Positions 1-4,854 are shown, counted from the stretch's first letter. The stretch: 64,000 bases of DNA from Candidatus Nomurabacteria bacterium (GCA_023267375.1 JAHFNJ010000002.1:23634-87633), one strand, 5' to 3'. Made by a program: numbers and translations. Notes: generated from the sequence alone by a model not told the origin.

Positions 1-2
1 TT

Positions 3-323
3 GGAACAGGCAATGATCTCATCACACAAGTTGATGATTTCATTGAAATCTGGACGGCGAAACGGCTCTCGGCAAAGGACTACCAGCATGCCACGTCAAA
101 ACCGATTACTTTACACGAAAAAGCGATTAAACGCTGTACCAAGCCGGGGGAAATAATCTTGGATAGCTTTCTCGGTTCAGGCAGTACGTTACTTGCAGGA
201 GAACAGCTCAGTCGACGGGTCTATGGCTGTGAGTTAGAACCCAGATTTTGTGATTTAATCATTAAGCGATTTGAAGCCATGACTGGGATCAAGGCAGTCG
301 TTGAACAGTATGAAAAAAACTAA
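3..323 (+). CDS. DNA methyltransferase C-terminal fragment (beta-class N6A/N4C type); the 5' end lies off the window
   Basis: Frame-3 translation reads ...QHATSKPITLHEKAIKRCTKPGEIILDSFLGSGSTLLAGEQLSRRVYGCELEPRFCDLIIKRF..., with the AdoMet motif I (DSFxGSGST) placed C-terminally as in permuted methyltransferases. The stop codon is at 321-323 and overlaps the small terminase start. Confidence 0.6.
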   Translation, partial: GTGNDLITQVDDFIEIWTAKRLSAKDYQHATSKPITLHEKAIKRCTKPGEIILDSFLGSGSTLLAGEQLSRRVYGCELEPRFCDLIIKRFEAMTGIKAVVEQYEKN

Positions 324-705
324 ATTACAAAATCAGTTTTTCGAGGAACTAAAAAAAGTGCCGATCGTCCAAGTCGCCTGTGAAAAAACCGGTGTCTCCC
401 GCAACAGCGTGTACCGCTGGAAAAAAGAAGACACCAAATTTTCAGAAAAGATGGAGGAGGCACTTACTGAAGGTGTAGCACTTGTAAATGATATGAGTGA
501 GAGTCAGTTACTCACACTCATTAAAGAAAAGAACTATCCAGCGATCAGCTTTTGGCTCCGTCATCGAAATGATAAGTACAAGAACAAAGTAGAGCTTTCA
601 GGGTCGGTCAAAACAATCAATGAAATGTCTCCCGAACAAGGGAAATTGGTGAAAGAAGCACTGCGACTTGCGGGAGTTGAAACATATGAAGAAAATCAAC
701 AATGA
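310..705 (+). CDS. Terminase small subunit-like protein, HTH-containing
   Basis: It sits immediately upstream of, and overlaps, the large terminase. It contains an HTH-like segment TGVSRNSVYRWKK. The ATG is at 310; the ORF track began at a TTG at 301. Confidence 0.45.
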   Translation: MKKTKLQNQFFEELKKVPIVQVACEKTGVSRNSVYRWKKEDTKFSEKMEEALTEGVALVNDMSESQLLTLIKEKNYPAISFWLRHRNDKYKNKVELSGSVKTINEMSPEQGKLVKEALRLAGVETYEENQQ

Positions 706-2119
706 AGTCATTGACGCCATAATCAAAGACAGAGGTGTCCGACAGAACACGACCCGACAGAGCTTGTGGCTTTTCTTCCTCGTCTACTTCGCCCATTACG
801 TAAAGTATGAACTGGCTCCGTTCCATGAAGAAATCATCGACATCGTTCAAAACGAATCAAACAAGCTCATCTGTATTTCTGCGTTCCGTGGTTCTGGAAA
901 ATCTACGTTGGTAACTACCGCTTCAGCGCTTTGGTCGATATTAGGAATTCAGCAGAAAAAATTCGTTCTCATTATCTGCCAAACAAAAACACAAGCTAAA
1001 ATGCATATGATGAGCTTGCGTTCCGAGCTTGAAGACAACGATCTCTTAAAAAGCGACCTTGGACCATTCCAAGAAGAAATGGATGCTGAATGGAGTGCAT
1101 CGTCTTTGGTATTTAGCAACACGAAGGCACGCATTACCATAGCATCGCTCGAGCAGAGCGTGCGGGGCATGCGCCATAGGCAAACGAGACCGGACTTGAT
1201 CATCCTCGACGATATCGAAGATTCCCAGTCCATCAAAACACTCGAAGGAAGAGACAAGACGTACAACTGGTTTACAAGTGAGATCATTCCGCTCGGAGAC
1301 TTGGCGACAAGAATCATCATTGTTGGAAACCTGATTCATGAAGATTCAATGGTCGTGAGATTGAAGAATAAAATTGAGAAAGAAGAAGTAAAAGGAATCT
1401 ACCGTGAATATCCGCTTATTAATTCGCACGGCGAGTGTTTATGGCCCGGGAAGTTTCCGACCGAGGAATCGCTTGAAGAATTCCAGAATACGATCTTGAA
1501 TCCGATCAGCTGGCAAAGAGAGTATCTTTTAAAGGTAGTGCCAGATGAATATCAAGTCGTGCATCGGGAATGGATACAGTATTACGATGAACTGCCAATG
1601 AACACCAGAAGCTACTCATGCATTATCATGGGAGTAGATCCGGCAATTTCTGAAAAAACAAAAGCTGACTGTTCAGCGATAGTGTCAGGATTGGTAGTTA
1701 TCACTGGTGGTACAAAAACCTTATATATTCTTCCTAATATTGTAAACGAACGACTCACGACCCCAGACCTAATAGATCGTATTTATGCTGTGAATCTGGA
1801 AAACAGAAAAATACATAGCGTTGTAAAAACAGTGGTGGAATCAATAGCTTTTCAGGAAGCGATCGTTCAGTTTTTGAGAAAATACGGATATACAAACTGT
1901 GAGGGTATAAAAGTAACTGAGGATAAACGCACACGACTTGCAACAATAAGTCACTTAATTAAAAGTGGAAATGTTTTATTCCCGAGGACAGGGGCGGAAT
2001 TACTGGTCACACAAATAGTTGGCTTTGGCGCAGAAAAGCATGACGACATAATGGATGCATTTACGCTGTGTACTCATAAATTCTTAAGTCTGCGTTATTC
2101 CAGTGTAATCTTTATTTAG
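668..2119 (+). CDS. Phage terminase large subunit
   Basis: It has a Walker A motif (AFRGSGKST), a Walker B-like LIILDDIED and a C-terminal nuclease-like half. It overlaps the small terminase by 38 nt, as is typical of packaging modules. The true start may be the ATG at 686. Confidence 0.8.
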   Translation: MRELKHMKKINNEVIDAIIKDRGVRQNTTRQSLWLFFLVYFAHYVKYELAPFHEEIIDIVQNESNKLICISAFRGSGKSTLVTTASALWSILGIQQKKFVLIICQTKTQAKMHMMSLRSELEDNDLLKSDLGPFQEEMDAEWSASSLVFSNTKARITIASLEQSVRGMRHRQTRPDLIILDDIEDSQSIKTLEGRDKTYNWFTSEIIPLGDLATRIIIVGNLIHEDSMVVRLKNKIEKEEVKGIYREYPLINSHGECLWPGKFPTEESLEEFQNTILNPISWQREYLLKVVPDEYQVVHREWIQYYDELPMNTRSYSCIIMGVDPAISEKTKADCSAIVSGLVVITGGTKTLYILPNIVNERLTTPDLIDRIYAVNLENRKIHSVVKTVVESIAFQEAIVQFLRKYGYTNCEGIKVTEDKRTRLATISHLIKSGNVLFPRTGAELLVTQIVGFGAEKHDDIMDAFTLCTHKFLSLRYSSVIFI

Positions 2120-2120
2120 T

Positions 2121-2732: not shown

Positions 2733-2733
2733 A

Positions 2734-3183
2734 TTATCTGTCTTTCAAACTATCGAGCTTCTTCTTGATCTCATACGGGGCTTCAACATGTTGCAACACA
2801 ACTTCTAAAGTATTTGTTCCAGCAGTATTCACGGCGATGCTTCCTGTGTGTGCGATTACTTTATCAAAAAACGGTTCTCGAATATGTATGTCCGTTATTT
2901 TTGAGTAATCAATACTGATCGTATTAGTAGAAAGCCATCCTCGATGAATTAAAACTCTTTTGTTGGTAAATGCAAAGGCATTAGCTTCACGAAGATAGAA
3001 ACCAAAATAGAAGAGAGCGATTAGAAACGTTATGATACCGATCCCTCCTGCAAACATGAACGGTAAACTTATGATCGCCCACATAATGATTCCTAGCTTG
3101 ATGTACCGCTTCCCGATTGAAAACTCATACTCTACTTTCTCATCTCCACTTAAGGTTTTATCCCAAATTTTTTGATACTTCAT
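2734..3183 (-). CDS. Small membrane protein with a bacterial PH (bPH_2/YdbS-like) domain
   Basis: It has two N-terminal TM helices followed by KRVLIHRGWLSTNTISIDYSKITDIHIREPFFDK, the bPH pattern. Confidence 0.5.
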   Translation of the reverse strand: MKYQKIWDKTLSGDEKVEYEFSIGKRYIKLGIIMWAIISLPFMFAGGIGIITFLIALFYFGFYLREANAFAFTNKRVLIHRGWLSTNTISIDYSKITDIHIREPFFDKVIAHTGSIAVNTAGTNTLEVVLQHVEAPYEIKKKLDSLKDR

Positions 3184-3534
3184 TTTGATAATTTTTTTGC
3201 GTCTTAGTAATAAATCCTAGGGTAAGACGCAAAAAACCTACCACTAGGCGAGCTTTTGAGGGCTCTATATGAGTTTCCTCATATAACGCAACGAGCGATC
3301 CTAATGATAGGGTCTTTAAGCTCGTTGCGTTTTTTCACCATGCCGCCGCCGAAGCGAAGGTTTAGGCTACTTTTCTTATTTAATTGTTAAACAAATAATA
3401 GCATTTTCCAGCTATTATTTCAGCCCCACCCTATCGCATACCCATATTTTTGTTAAGGCAAGAACACGAGTATGCTACGAATTTTTAGTTCTGCATAGCT
3501 TAGCAAAACTACTGTTCTCTGACATCATTGGTAT

Positions 3535-4854
3535 ATGGAAACATATACATCCGCCCGTATTAGTAAAGAGCTAGTGGTACCAATACAGAAAATTAAGTAC
3601 GTCCTGTATGCTCGTAAATCAACTGAATCAGAAGAACGGCAAGTACTTTCGATTGATTCACAAGTCAAAGAAATGCTTGAACTTGCAGAACGAGAAAGTC
3701 TTGATGTAGTAGAAATACGGCGTGAATCGCATAGTGCCAAAGAATCGGGACAGAGACCTGTCTACAAGGAAATTTTGGAAGACGTCCGGCGCGGACGATT
3801 CAACGGAATCCTAACTTGGGCACCTGATCGGCTTTCTCGTAACGCTGGCGATCTCGGCAGTATTGTTGACCTCATGGATCAAAAATTGCTCATGGAAATT
3901 CGTACTTACGGACAACATTTCAAGAATTCACCGAACGAGAAATTTCTACTAATGATTCTCTGTTCGCAAGCGAAACTTGAGAATGATAACAAAAGCGTAA
4001 ACGTAAAACGCGGACTACGGACGAGAGCAGAAATGGGACTACGTCCAGGAGTTGCTCCTACGGGCTACCTAAACGAGAAAAGAACAGATCGAAAATGTGA
4101 GGTAATAGTAGACCAAGAACGAGCACCTACTATAAAGAAAATGTTTGAGAAAGTTGCCTATGAGCATTGGAGTGGAAGAAAGCTCTACAACTGGCTCAAA
4201 TTTGATTTGAATTTCAGGACAGCATACGGAAAGAAACATTTGAGTTTAGGGAATCTCTACAAGATACTCGATAACCCTTTCTACTACGGCGTATTTGAAT
4301 ATCCGAAAAACAGCGGTAATTGGTACACAGGAAAACATGAACCACTGATTACGAAAGAACTGTTTGATCTCGTCCAAAAACAGGTAAAAAGCAATGTATT
4401 AAGAATTGAAAACAAAGAATTTGCTTTTACGAAAATGATGACCTGTGGACTCTGTGGCTCGGGAATATCGGCAGACGAGAAATTTAAGAAACTCAAAAAT
4501 GGAGGGGTCGCTCGGTACGTCTATTATGGTTGCACCAAGGCGCGCGGGGTGGATTGCAAATGTGGGTATACCGAAGAGAAAGAAATTCTAAAACAATTTA
4601 ATGAGCTGATTGAGAAAATTGATCTAAATGAGATCGAGATTAAGGAGAAGATAAAGGCTGACGTTGAACGATTTTCCAAACTGCAGAAATTCTTATTAGG
4701 AACGAAAGAAAAAATTGATATACCAAATATTGATGTACGGGGATATGCGAGATACATTCTAAGAGAAGGATCTGATACTGAGAAAAGAGAATTACTCAAT
4801 TGTTTGAAGAGTAAGATTTGTTTAGCGAACAAGAAAATTTCTTTGAAATTTTAA
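3535..4854 (+). CDS. Large serine recombinase (integrase)
   Basis: The N-terminal resolvase domain has the catalytic Ser context YARKSTESEE and DRLSRN. It also has a recombinase domain and a Cys-rich zinc ribbon (CGLCGS...CTKARGVDCKC), and is 439 aa. Confidence 0.8.
   Translation: METYTSARISKELVVPIQKIKYVLYARKSTESEERQVLSIDSQVKEMLELAERESLDVVEIRRESHSAKESGQRPVYKEILEDVRRGRFNGILTWAPDRLSRNAGDLGSIVDLMDQKLLMEIRTYGQHFKNSPNEKFLLMILCSQAKLENDNKSVNVKRGLRTRAEMGLRPGVAPTGYLNEKRTDRKCEVIVDQERAPTIKKMFEKVAYEHWSGRKLYNWLKFDLNFRTAYGKKHLSLGNLYKILDNPFYYGVFEYPKNSGNWYTGKHEPLITKELFDLVQKQVKSNVLRIENKEFAFTKMMTCGLCGSGISADEKFKKLKNGGVARYVYYGCTKARGVDCKCGYTEEKEILKQFNELIEKIDLNEIEIKEKIKADVERFSKLQKFLLGTKEKIDIPNIDVRGYARYILREGSDTEKRELLNCLKSKICLANKKISLKF

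What the first reader, a model, noticed from the sequence alone, without database searches (positions are those of the whole stretch)
1..4854. Right end of a prophage-like integrative element: methyltransferase, small terminase, large terminase, moron pair and large serine recombinase
The packaging genes overlap as in phages (methyltransferase stop / terS start; terS-terL 38-nt overlap). Immediately after terL the expected portal and head genes are absent. In their place come a reverse-strand two-gene insert and a large serine recombinase. This suggests either a prophage arranged with the packaging module next to int (the rest lying left of the window) or a satellite-like reduced element. Either way it is a mobile element in a lineage where few are characterised.
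Basis: partly seen in the sequence, partly recalled or inferred. Interest (0 to 1): 0.5.

Follow-up and report, generated by a model that had tools for sequence, protein, structure and literature searches.

The report
Capsid-less terminase–integrase mobile element
This is not the end of a full prophage but an intact phage-derived cassette (DNA methylase, small and large terminase, a cargo slot headed by the LOOT RNA, a serine integrase) that recurs in hundreds of Patescibacteria genomes without capsid genes, so it is probably a satellite-like mobile element that has not been described.

Summary
In detail: methylase C-terminus, terS, terL, a reverse-strand gene pair and a large serine recombinase (LSR) lie at the stated coordinates, all intact.

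The reading "rest of the prophage lies to the left" is refuted. An identical contig extends 6.4 kb leftwards and shows only the rest of the methylase, a 207-aa gene and AbiV, then a two-component system and a cupredoxin.

The alternative "satellite-like reduced element" is supported and generalised. At least 560 species-level genomes, almost all labelled Patescibacteria, carry this terL clade. In the 80 examined, the layout is [LexA-like repressor<] [small protein>] methylase> terS> terL> [0-8 kb cargo, often LOOT-led] LSR>, with no recurrent portal or capsid gene within 10 kb. Core genes are under strong purifying selection (dN/dS 0.004-0.14). Phage contigs with 35-43% identical terL have portal and major capsid genes where this element has the LSR.

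Most likely this is a repressor-controlled integrative element that packages itself into a helper phage's capsids. Mobility, att sites and a helper are not shown. No description of it was found in the searchable literature.

The parts
1..323 (+). 3' end of a ParB-like/N6-N4 DNA methyltransferase gene. The full protein is 427 aa; the gene starts about 960 bp left of the window.
   Evidence: PF01555 2.7e-18 and phrog_498 3e-28. Full-length gene on L003 5445-6728. A methylase sits directly upstream of terS-terL in 75 of 80 related genome loci. The ParB-like N-terminus is judged by eye from the motif ILAGHMRIKAL, not from an HMM hit.
301..705 (+). Terminase small subunit (HTH protein; 134 aa from the TTG at 301, 131 aa from the ATG at 310)
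   Evidence: phrog_4044 6e-12, phrog_4102 and phrog_309, all annotated terminase small subunit. A homologue is found in all 84 terL loci examined.
668..2119 (+). Terminase large subunit (477 aa from the ATG at 686), with ATPase and nuclease parts intact
   Evidence: phrog_38 3.3e-76. The Walker A residues (FRGSGKST), the LIILDD stretch and HDD are invariant in a 15-sequence alignment. More than 2000 homologues at E<=1e-10. dN/dS 0.004-0.09 between close relatives.
2121..2732 (-). Cargo gene 2: T5orf172/MUG113 (GIY-YIG-like) protein, a candidate anti-phage defence gene
   Evidence: PF10544 2.6e-18. PADLOC PDC-S57 4.6e-69 over the full length. Present only in this genome among the loci examined.
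2734..3183 (-). Cargo gene 1: membrane protein with a bacterial PH domain (bPH_2)
   Evidence: PF03703 6.1e-12; phrog_3707 'membrane-flanked domain', moron category. Homologues are the first LOOT-led cargo gene in L024 and L120 and follow terL in L080.
3185..3249 (-). Spacer between LOOT and the cargo start codon. It holds a short GC hairpin followed by a T-run (about 3249-3231), then a 14-bp hairpin (about 3236-3193).
   Evidence: Sequence; inverted repeat I4. The hairpin plus T-run directly after LOOT recurs in most of the 46 LOOT loci listed. The LOOT-to-cargo distance is typically 50-90 nt.
3250..3368 (-). LOOT RNA (Rfam RF03000), transcribed towards the cargo genes
   Evidence: 78.4 bits against a gathering score of 46.4, E 4.4e-13, full length. 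On 38 distinct sequences 92% of cells pair and 41 of 44 pairs show compensatory changes, against <=40% paired when partners are slid.
3369..3534 (.). Divergent control region. It holds a promoter-like site for LOOT (-35 at 3423-3418, TG-extended -10 at 3400-3395, minus strand), the conserved block CCTATCGCA (3430-3438), and a conserved ~70-bp region upstream of the recombinase (CGAGTATGCTACG 3467-3479; CTGCATAGCTTAGCAAAAC 3491-3509; GACATCATT 3521-3529).
   Evidence: The recombinase-proximal block is the same whether the terL stop or LOOT precedes it. Its role is inferred.
3535..4854 (+). Large serine recombinase (439 aa), the presumed integrase. Its stop codon coincides with the right edge of the conserved backbone in relatives.
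   Evidence: Resolvase 5e-20, Recombinase 9.6e-14, Zn_ribbon_recom 2.3e-5; phrog_95 integrase 1.9e-59. The catalytic-serine motif YARKSTESE is read from the translation. Nearest solved structure is the SPbeta integrase YokA, 1.9e-14. A co-oriented homologue lies downstream of terL in 48 of 66 loci with >=3 kb of right flank. The backbone similarity ends at its stop codon.

Best explanation
Window 1-4854, plus about 2.5 kb to its left, is one copy of a compact phage-derived integrative element that is widespread in Patescibacteria.

Backbone. Its constant parts are:
- a divergently transcribed repressor, LexA-like in most relatives but replaced by an AbiV gene in this copy;
- a small protein of unknown function (207 aa here);
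- a ParB-like DNA methyltransferase;
- TerS and TerL;
- a variable cargo slot;
- a large serine recombinase.
It has no portal, capsid, tail, lysis or recognisable replication genes.

Proposed mechanism. The steps below are inferred unless marked as shown.
1. The element sits integrated and silent under its repressor.
2. Derepression, by SOS-type self-cleavage of the S24 repressor or by an infecting helper phage, turns on the methylase-terS-terL operon and the recombinase.
3. The recombinase excises the element, and later re-integrates it.
4. The element's own TerS recognises the element's DNA, and its TerL packages it into procapsids made by a helper phage. Shown: a related phage clade has methylase-terS-terL followed by portal and major capsid genes.
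5. The methylase protects the transferred DNA in the next host.

Cargo slot. The slot between terL and the recombinase carries host-benefit or defence genes: here a bPH_2 membrane protein and a PDC-S57-like T5orf172 protein. It has its own promoter-like site and starts with the structured LOOT RNA. A short hairpin plus U-run follows LOOT. I read LOOT as a leader or small RNA that gates read-through into the cargo.
For: Gene content and intactness.

Left flank: it has no structural genes and runs into chromosomal genes.

Family size: more than 2000 TerL homologues, and at least 560 loci in species-representative genomes, almost all labelled Patescibacteria.

Conserved layout in 80 genome loci:
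- methylase upstream of terS-terL in 75;
- co-oriented recombinase downstream in 48 of 66 loci with enough flank;
- recombinase directly adjacent to terL in 25;
- LexA-like gene within 4 kb upstream in 36 of 67.

No virion genes: no portal or capsid family recurs among 115 large neighbouring ORFs.

Phage relatives: viral contigs with 35-43% identical TerL have a portal (phrog_2662, 1e-119) and a major head protein (phrog_10, 6e-90) right after terL.

Selection: dN/dS is 0.004-0.14 for the methylase, terS, terL, the recombinase, LexA-like and the 207-aa family. dS differs between modules, which indicates mosaic exchange.

Copy number and edges: several MAGs hold two copies. A roughly 6-kb backbone is shared at 87-89% identity, and the similarity ends at the LexA-like and recombinase stop codons.

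Cargo slot: its content varies while the backbone stays constant, for example L034 against L039.

LOOT: the hit, its covariation and its fixed position 5' of cargo genes are.

Cargo function: one cargo gene matches a candidate defence family.
Against: - No att sites, empty site, circular junction or terminal repeats were found. Mobility through the recombinase is therefore inferred.
- The shared right-hand tRNA-Gln in L033, L050 and L051 suggests that some of the 'different flanks' reflect a variable hot spot in syntenic genomes rather than independent insertions.
- No replication gene was recognised. A 6-9 kb element would need concatemers, or in-situ packaging, to fill a capsid.
- No helper phage is identified. 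The nearest capsid-encoding relatives share only 35-43% TerL identity and use a different TerS family.
- About a quarter of loci with enough flank lack the recombinase.
- This copy lacks the LexA-like repressor. The palindrome seen upstream of the recombinase in a subset of relatives is degenerate here.
- dN/dS as low as in housekeeping genes would also fit a domesticated function.
Confidence: 0.5

Rival explanations
1. Domesticated or host-beneficial module. The methylase-TerS-TerL unit, with or without the recombinase, is kept by the bacteria for their own use. One option is anti-phage defence, in which a terminase competes for or cuts incoming phage DNA while the methylase marks self DNA. 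Another is a chromosome-packaging gene-transfer device. In that version packaging starts in situ at a pac site and runs rightwards through the cargo and neighbouring genes into capsids supplied by a phage, as in lateral transduction or a gene transfer agent.
For: - dN/dS is very low in all core genes.
- The module is present in at least 560 species-level genomes.
- Neighbours are rich in defence genes: Shedu SduA, SMODS, restriction-modification genes, ThsB-TIR, AbiV.
- About a quarter of loci lack the recombinase.
- There are no replication genes and no detectable att sites.
- Variable cargo accumulates on the downstream side of terS-terL, as expected if that side is transferred most often.
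Against: - Several genomes hold two copies, each with its own LexA-like repressor.
- Modules exchange in a mosaic fashion.
- The backbone ends at the recombinase stop codon.
- A self-cleaving repressor together with an integrase is the usual equipment of a temperate mobile element.
- No PADLOC model matches TerL, the recombinase or the 207-aa protein.
- No capsid source is encoded nearby in this version either.
Confidence: 0.22
2. Relic of a decayed ('grounded') prophage. A full prophage lost its structural, lysis and replication genes, and the packaging genes and integrase are what remains. This copy may also have lost its repressor.
For: - In capsid-encoding relatives the same methylase-terS-terL block is followed by portal and capsid genes, so the element derives from such a phage.
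- This copy lacks the LexA-like gene that 36 of 67 relatives have. It carries AbiV in that position.
- The palindrome upstream of the recombinase is degenerate here.
Against: - Random decay would not give the same reduced gene set and order in dozens of distantly related genomes.
- All six core genes are intact and under strong purifying selection.
- In 25 loci the recombinase starts within about 200 bp of the terL stop, with a conserved upstream block. That is a tidy junction, not a deletion scar.
Confidence: 0.13
3. Right end of a complete prophage whose head, tail and lysis genes lie to the left of the window.
For: - Packaging genes overlap in the phage manner and an integrase is nearby.
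- One related MAG (nzgw467, locus L078) was reported to carry predicted prophages (PMC12455944). Whether those predictions cover this locus is not known.
Against: - The identical contig L003 extends 6.4 kb to the left. It shows a 207-aa gene and AbiV, then a histidine kinase, a response regulator and a cupredoxin.
- No portal or capsid family occurs within 10 kb of terL in any of the 80 related genome loci.
Confidence: 0.03

Closest known systems
Phage satellites that redirect packaging: PICIs/SaPIs with their own TerS, and capsid-forming PICIs with TerS and TerL
   Same: - Small integrated element with an integrase at one end.
- A repressor, and no tail or lysis genes.
- Its own packaging-specificity protein.
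- A hot spot carrying defence or accessory genes, as in the P4 and PICI hot spots (PMC9122126, listed; the P4/PICI comparison is from my own knowledge).
   Different: - It encodes both TerS and TerL but no capsid, portal, protease or connector. Capsid-forming PICIs have these; classical PICIs have no TerL.
- It uses a large serine integrase instead of a tyrosine integrase.
- No primase/replicase or AlpA was recognised.
- It always carries a methyltransferase.
- Its hosts are Patescibacteria, and no helper phage is known.
Temperate tailed phages with a methylase-terS-terL-portal-capsid late module (IMG/VR contigs L117-L164)
   Same: Homologous TerL (35-43% identity). The methylase sits upstream of the terminase genes, and the packaging genes overlap.
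   Different: The phages continue with a portal (phrog_2662) and a major head protein (phrog_10). The element has the serine recombinase, or cargo followed by the recombinase, at that point. The TerS proteins fall into different sequence clusters.
Large serine integrases of phages and mobile elements (SPbeta SprA/YokA, TP901-1, A118, Bxb1)
   Same: Resolvase catalytic domain with the YxRxST serine motif, a Recombinase domain and a zinc ribbon. The best solved match is SPbeta YokA.
   Different: At 439 aa it is short for the family. Its att sites and directionality factor are unknown. It is frequently paired with a divergent or downstream LOOT RNA, which has not been reported for characterised integrases as far as I know.
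LOOT RNA (Rfam RF03000; Weinberg et al. 2017, PMC5737381)
   Same: A full-length, above-threshold match with the family's helices and strong covariation.
   Different: The sources I could read describe it only as a metagenome-derived RNA, with no function stated; the 2017 supplement was not readable. Here it sits at a fixed place: after its own promoter-like site, 50-90 nt upstream of variable cargo genes. It is next to serine recombinase genes in about a third of loci with enough flank.
RNA-based control in prophages and satellites (P4 CI RNA, HK022 put antiterminator RNA). Recalled from memory, used as an analogy only.
   Same: A structured RNA encoded just downstream of a promoter, at the start of an operon of a mobile element, followed by a terminator-like hairpin.
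   Different: There is no sequence or structure relation, and no experiment exists for LOOT. The analogy is a lead, not a test.

Membership tests
Complete temperate tailed prophage | Portal, major capsid and tail genes adjacent to the terminase genes | tested here: not met
   Nothing of the kind follows terL in the window or lies in the 6.4 kb to the left. The portal and capsid clusters of the phage relatives occur in none of the 80 genome loci. None appears among the 25 families listed for 115 neighbouring ORFs.
Complete temperate tailed prophage | Terminase small and large subunits plus an integrase | tested here: met
   phrog_4044, phrog_38 and phrog_95.
Phage satellite (PICI-like, SatelliteFinder-type definition) | Integrase at one end, no virion structural or lysis genes, size under about 20 kb | tested here: met
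   The recombinase lies at the right edge of the backbone. The backbone is about 6 kb, or 7-14 kb with cargo. No structural genes were found.
Phage satellite (PICI-like, SatelliteFinder-type definition) | Own replication module (primase/replicase) and an AlpA-type regulator | tested here: not met
   No such Pfam or PHROG hit in the core genes. The small core proteins (the 207-aa family and the ~137-aa family) have no hits.
Phage satellite (PICI-like, SatelliteFinder-type definition) | Induction by, and packaging into the particles of, a helper phage | not testable with these tools
   This needs virome reads or experiments. Only a related capsid-encoding phage clade was found.
Capsid-forming PICI | TerS and TerL together with capsid, portal, protease and head-tail connector genes | tested here: not met
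   TerS and TerL are present; the capsid-forming genes are absent.
Large serine recombinase / integrase | Resolvase catalytic domain with the nucleophilic serine, a Recombinase domain and a zinc ribbon | tested here: met
   PF00239 5e-20, PF07508 9.6e-14. PF13408 scores 25.1 bits against a cut-off of 25.3, so it is marginal. YARKSTESE motif. PDB match to YokA.
Large serine recombinase / integrase | Identifiable attL/attR pair flanking the element | tested here: inconclusive
   Backbone similarity stops at the LexA-like and recombinase stop codons. No convincing inverted-repeat pair, empty site or circular junction was found.
Terminase large subunit | N-terminal ATPase (Walker A/B) and C-terminal RNase H-like nuclease | tested here: met
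   phrog_38 matches residues 25-467. Many homologues carry PF17289. The Walker A residues, the LIILDD stretch and HDD are invariant.
LOOT RNA (RF03000) | Score above the Rfam gathering threshold, with the family's helices supported by covariation | tested here: met
   78.4 bits against 46.4. 41 of 44 pairs show compensatory changes.
Gene transfer agent | A head-tail structural cluster encoded by the host and co-regulated with the terminase | tested here: inconclusive
   None lies within 10 kb in 80 loci. Whole genomes could not be scanned.
PADLOC candidate defence system PDC-S57 (the T5orf172 cargo gene) | Full-length match to the single-gene model | tested here: met
   PDLC05041 4.6e-69, protein residues 2-201 against profile positions 5-208 of 212. 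Function was not tested.

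The most novel reading that the evidence does not exclude
A phylum-wide, undescribed class of phage satellite in Patescibacteria. It consists only of a repressor, a methylase, the terminase holoenzyme (TerS and TerL), a cargo slot and a serine integrase. It would steal whole procapsids from helper phages by bringing its own packaging motor. The LOOT RNA, which has had no known function since 2017, would be the regulatory RNA that heads the cargo or early operons of this element and of other serine-integrase elements in these bacteria.
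Probability: 0.4. Interest if true: 0.75.

Novelty: new variant of a known kind. Interest (0 to 1): 0.62.

Why it matters
Patescibacteria make up a large share of bacterial diversity, yet almost nothing is known about their mobile elements or how genes move between them.

- A capsid-less element that carries a complete terminase and sits in hundreds of species would be a major and tractable vehicle of gene flow and defence-gene exchange in this phylum.
- It would extend the satellite concept to elements that bring the packaging motor rather than capsid-remodelling proteins.
- It gives the orphan LOOT RNA a concrete genetic context that can be tested.
- It supplies many compact serine integrases with a conserved upstream block, which may interest genome-engineering work.
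- Practically, the terL gene makes these loci register as viral or prophage. IMG/VR already holds them as viral contigs, and lysogeny estimates for these bacteria may be inflated as a result.

Tried and rejected
- Terminal direct or inverted repeats on whole-contig loci, as a sign of circular forms: none.
- Contigs joining the recombinase 3' end to the LexA-like 3' end, as expected for a circular junction or tandem copies: none.
- Empty-site search through exact look-up of a right-flank protein: only the occupied arrangement exists.
- Inverted and direct repeats across the element in L003: only short matches at chance level. One pair (4617-4636 with 11195-11214) sits at suggestive positions but is weak.
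- tRNA genes as integration targets. Minus-strand tRNAs are common to the right of the element. That follows the general strand bias of the flanks, and the tRNA identities vary, so this is not evidence for a tRNA target.
- The 14-bp palindrome TGCATAGCTATGCA upstream of the recombinase as an att core or LexA box. It occurs only in a subset, is even-symmetric, does not recur in the LexA-like/operon intergenic region, and is degenerate in the window. It is more likely an operator or hairpin of one subfamily.
- L026 as evidence for circular permutation. Rejected: it has two recombinase genes, one in the standard position.
- LOOT as specific to the terminase element. Rejected: in a LOOT-selected metagenome sample only about 10 of 74 loci have terL, terS or methylase nearby.
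- The 207-aa protein has no Pfam, PHROG, PADLOC or PDB hit. Its C-terminus resembles an OmpR-type winged helix by eye only.
- Source names for the window's own proteins: none on record.
- Six literature searches and several papers gave no description of this module.

Full report
**1. What is in the window**

- 3-323 (+): the last 106 residues of an N6/N4 DNA methylase.
- 301/310-705 (+): a 131-134-aa HTH protein matching several terminase small subunit families.
- 668/686-2119 (+): a terminase large subunit (phrog_38, 3.3e-76).
- 2121-2732 (-): a T5orf172/MUG113 protein.
- 2734-3183 (-): a bPH_2 membrane protein.
- 3535-4854 (+): a 439-aa large serine recombinase with all three typical domains.

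The gene overlaps are as described. The terS/terL overlap is 38 nt from the TTG at 668, or 20 nt from the ATG at 686 that gene callers used.

A full-length LOOT RNA (Rfam RF03000) lies at 3250-3368 on the minus strand, between the reverse gene pair and the recombinase. It scores 78.4 bits against a gathering score of 46.4.

**2. What lies to the left**

Exact-protein look-ups found the same DNA on other assemblies.
- L003, a Logan contig of 13.7 kb, is 100% identical to window 1-7320 and extends 6.4 kb further left.
- Going leftwards it carries the rest of the methylase (427 aa in full), a 207-aa gene with no hits, and a reverse-strand HEPN/AbiV gene.
- Beyond those come a histidine kinase, a response regulator, a cupredoxin protein and a 678-aa protein.

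There are no structural phage genes. The reading "the rest of the prophage lies to the left" is therefore refuted.

To the right of the recombinase lie a small ORF and a low-GC (about 0.32) ADP-ribosyltransferase-like gene. A P-type ATPase and two tRNA-Ser genes follow. None of these recurs next to related elements, apart from distant P-type ATPases.

**3. The element is one of a very large family**

- The TerL has more than 2000 homologues at E<=1e-10. Those with a source name are mostly from Parcubacteria or Patescibacteria MAGs, and many lie on contigs of 0.1-0.6 Mb.
The best 80 are nearly all labelled as Patescibacteria lineages. A few labels (Gammaproteobacteria, Flavobacteriaceae, Methanoregula) look like mis-binning or mislabelling.
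- The rest of the window carries type IV pilus genes, a ComF-like gene, LigA, an amidase and CTP synthase on a roughly 42% GC background, which I read as consistent with such a host.

I called ORFs crudely (longest non-overlapping ORFs) and clustered them by BLAST. The resulting layout is strongly conserved:
- [ThsB-TIR<] [DUF2188<] [LexA-like<] [small protein: a ~137-aa family, the 207-aa family, or one of two others>]
- methylase> (sometimes a second methylase>) terS> terL>
- [0-8 kb of variable genes]
- serine recombinase>.

Counts in the 80 genome loci:
- A methylase lies directly upstream of terS-terL in 75.
- A co-oriented recombinase lies downstream of terL in 52, which is 48 of the 66 loci with at least 3 kb of right flank.
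- The recombinase starts within about 200 bp of the terL stop in 25.
- One cassette (0.7-1.8 kb) intervenes in 13, and 3-8 kb intervenes in 14.
- A LexA-like gene (LexA_DNA_bind plus Peptidase_S24) lies within 4 kb upstream in 36 of 67.
- Several MAGs hold two copies: L017/L076 on one contig, plus L014/L075, L026/L030 and L019/L057. In L017 and L076 each copy has its own LexA-like gene, which argues that this gene belongs to the element and is not the host's lexA.

**4. No virion genes nearby, but a phage ancestry**

- 115 diverse large neighbouring ORFs were scanned against Pfam and PHROGs. No portal, capsid or head family appeared in the lists returned.
- The recurrent neighbours were housekeeping or defence genes: Shedu SduA, SMODS, restriction-modification enzymes and NucS-like nucleases.
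- IMG/VR holds the same element layout for TerL relatives at roughly 44% identity or more (32 viral loci carry the recombinase).
- Relatives at 35-43% identity are ordinary phage genomes. In them a methylase and a different TerS family precede terL, and a portal (phrog_2662, 1e-119), a scaffold/protease-like protein and a major head protein (phrog_10, 6e-90) follow it.

The element therefore descends from the late-gene start of such a phage, with the recombinase standing where the portal would be.

**5. The genes are functional, not relics**

- The TerL alignment keeps the Walker A residues (FRGSGKST), the LIILDD stretch and the HDD motif invariant.
- Seven closely related pairs of loci were compared for the methylase, terS, terL, the recombinase, LexA-like and the 207-aa family. 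dN/dS is 0.004-0.14 throughout.
- dS differs sharply between neighbouring genes of the same pair. In L033 against L050, terL has dS 1.2 while its neighbours have about 0.55. In L034 against L039, the recombinase has dS 1.06 and LexA-like 0.06. This is the mosaic pattern of recombining mobile elements.

**6. Edges**

- L033, L038, L050 and L051 share about 6.05 kb at 87-89% nucleotide identity. Alignments show the similarity beginning about 10-15 bp outside the LexA-like stop codon and ending at the recombinase stop codon.
- L034 and L039 end their similarity about 50 bp before the recombinase stop.
- There is a caveat. L033, L050 and L051 share DNA further left, and L033 and L050 also share a tRNA-Gln region further right. 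Part of the flank difference is therefore a variable hot spot in syntenic genomes rather than independent insertion.
- I found no att pair, no empty site, no circular junction and no terminal repeats.

Mobility through the recombinase is thus inferred from architecture, copy number and mosaicism. It is not shown.

**7. The cargo slot and LOOT**

I built a covariance model from the window copy plus the Rfam consensus and refined it once.
- It finds LOOT in 36 of the 80 genome loci and in 9 viral loci.
- In the genome loci LOOT lies to the right of terL, except in L026 (next to an extra recombinase copy) and L068 (a weak hit).
- LOOT is co-oriented with a variable gene that typically starts 50-90 nt downstream. 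Most often this is a DUF4352 membrane protein. Other cases are a secreted SNase, a bPH_2 protein as in the window, or unrelated ORFs.

Three arrangements occur:
- terL> <cargo <LOOT recombinase> (the window's arrangement, and the commonest);
- terL> recombinase> LOOT> cargo>;
- rarely, LOOT> cargo> recombinase>.

The RNA structure is real. On 38 distinct sequences 92% of cells pair and 41 of 44 pairs show compensatory changes, against at most 40% paired when partners are slid by 1-3 columns. G-U pairs fit the strand that points towards the cargo. That alignment was fitted to the model, but the slid controls are far lower.

Upstream of LOOT there are -35/-10-like hexamers and a conserved ACAATTAAATA-like block. 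In the window the TG-extended -10 lies at 3400-3395. Directly downstream there is usually a short GC hairpin followed by a T-run. This is the layout of a small RNA with its own terminator, or of a leader that controls read-through.

A conserved block of about 70 bp immediately upstream of the recombinase start codon is the same whether terL or LOOT precedes it. I read it as the recombinase's promoter and control region.

In L015 a roughly 60-bp piece of this block is duplicated on either side of a 3.9-kb insert. The slot therefore does take up DNA at that point.

**8. LOOT is broader than this element**

A pattern scan of the metagenome collection for one LOOT subfamily returned 80 loci, and the model confirmed 74 of them.
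- Only about 10 have terL, terS or methylase nearby.
- A serine recombinase lies within 3 kb upstream in 8 of the 24 loci with enough flank, and on either side in 7 of the 14 with both flanks.
- I consider this far above what the density of such genes would give by chance.
- Several of these loci show LOOT at the head of a long run of co-directional small genes.

LOOT therefore appears to be a general feature of serine-recombinase-bearing mobile elements in these bacteria. The terminase element is one of its homes. The papers I could read describe LOOT only as a metagenome-derived RNA with unusually rich covariation. The supplement of the 2017 paper was not available.

**9. The window's copy in particular**

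- It has the commonest arrangement, with a two-gene cargo.
- The T5orf172 protein matches the PADLOC candidate defence family PDC-S57 over its full length (4.6e-69).
- bPH_2 homologues are the first LOOT-led cargo gene in L024 and L120.
- It differs from most relatives in having AbiV instead of the LexA-like repressor at the left end.
- It carries a degenerate version of the palindrome found upstream of the recombinase in a subset of relatives.
- It may therefore be regulated differently or be partly disabled, although all its genes are intact.

**10. Mechanism and rivals**

The best-supported model (confidence 0.5) is a repressor-controlled integrative element.
- It encodes its own packaging enzyme and DNA-protecting methylase.
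- It depends on a helper phage for capsids, tails and lysis.
- The serine recombinase handles integration and excision.
- A LOOT-headed slot carries defence or membrane genes.

Shown: the gene set, the conservation, the selection, the absence of virion genes nearby, the phage ancestry and the RNA. Inferred: induction, excision, packaging and the role of LOOT.

Rivals:
- A domesticated defence or gene-transfer module (0.22). It is favoured by the very low dN/dS, the defence-island neighbourhood, the copies without a recombinase and the lack of a replication gene.
- A decayed prophage relic (0.13). It is disfavoured by the repeated, tidy architecture and the selection.
- The end of a full prophage (0.03). 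It is contradicted by the left flank.

**11. Comparison with known systems and novelty**

The element works most like a phage satellite, but it fails two usual satellite criteria because it has no replication module and no AlpA-type regulator. It also differs from every described class I could check.
- Classical PICIs carry TerS or a redirecting protein but no TerL.
- Capsid-forming PICIs carry TerS and TerL together with capsid genes.
- P4, PLE and PICMI carry no terminase (my own knowledge, plus the class summary in PMC12822802).
- A recently described mycobacterial satellite class (EPIP) has TerS, capsid and scaffold genes and a serine integrase (PMC12822802).

Six full-text searches and targeted reading of papers on Patescibacteria phages and gene exchange gave no description of a methylase-TerS-TerL-serine-recombinase module. 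They also gave no genetic context for LOOT. The library is limited to open-access texts, so prior description cannot be excluded.

I rate the element a new variant of a known kind, with interest 0.62. It is widespread, clean and testable, but its mobility and helper dependence remain unproven.

**12. Limits**

- The ORF calls and clusters are crude.
- The 80 genome loci are the best-scoring of at least 560, so they are biased towards relatives of the query.
- The LOOT metagenome sample covers one subfamily, and many of its contigs are short.
- MAG labels may be wrong.
- Whole genomes could not be scanned for distant structural gene clusters.

Noticed in passing
window 4926-6841: A low-GC (about 0.32) stretch lies right after the recombinase. 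It holds a lysine-rich 45-52-aa ORF followed 5 bp later by a 583-aa protein. The C-terminal part of that protein matches ADP-ribosyltransferase exoenzyme toxins (PF03496, 1.5e-10). No homologue occurs in any related locus, so it may be a separately acquired toxin/effector pair.
   Followed up: partly
window 9490-9575 (-) and 9671-9756 (+): Two divergent tRNA-Ser genes lie 95 bp apart. They share identical acceptor and T arms but have different anticodon stems. One has the normal GCU anticodon. The other has ACU, which is unusual because A34 is rare in bacterial tRNAs.
   Followed up: partly
window 6854-9370; L029, L030, L034, L038, L046, L047, L076, L081: A P-type cation ATPase lies about 2 kb right of the recombinase in the window. 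A distantly related P-type ATPase family (about 24% identity, on the opposite strand) lies downstream of terL, mostly 3-4 kb away, in about ten related loci. This may mark a preferred neighbourhood or target region.
   Followed up: no
L015 13190-13420 and 17130-17330: About 60 bp of the conserved block upstream of the recombinase, including the palindrome TGCATAGCTATGCA, is duplicated on both sides of a 3.9-kb insert between LOOT and the recombinase gene. It looks like an insertion footprint and could point to the recombination site.
   Followed up: partly
L166-L245 (for example L222, L225, L228): In metagenome contigs chosen only by a LOOT sequence pattern, LOOT often sits near larger serine recombinases (about 540-600 aa). 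It also heads long runs of co-directional small genes. This suggests that other LOOT-carrying mobile elements or prophages exist in these bacteria.
   Followed up: partly
L033/L050 and L034/L039 (locus coordinates about 6800-12900): Synonymous divergence differs two- to twenty-fold between adjacent core genes of the same pair of elements. The modules (terL, or recombinase plus cargo) are therefore swapped by recombination.
   Followed up: partly
L099, L100, L101: Three IMG/VR contigs carry two terL-like ORFs in tandem (about 520 aa each), ahead of the recombinase.
   Followed up: no
window 11822-25900: A large type IV pilus / competence cluster starts about 7 kb right of the element. It includes a ComF-like phosphoribosyltransferase, PilM, a PilO-like protein, two T2SSE ATPases, T2SSF and N-methyl pilins.
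   Followed up: no
window 48405-57906: Two very large ORFs (1922 aa and 1101 aa, the latter with an MBG domain) are probably surface proteins.
   Followed up: no
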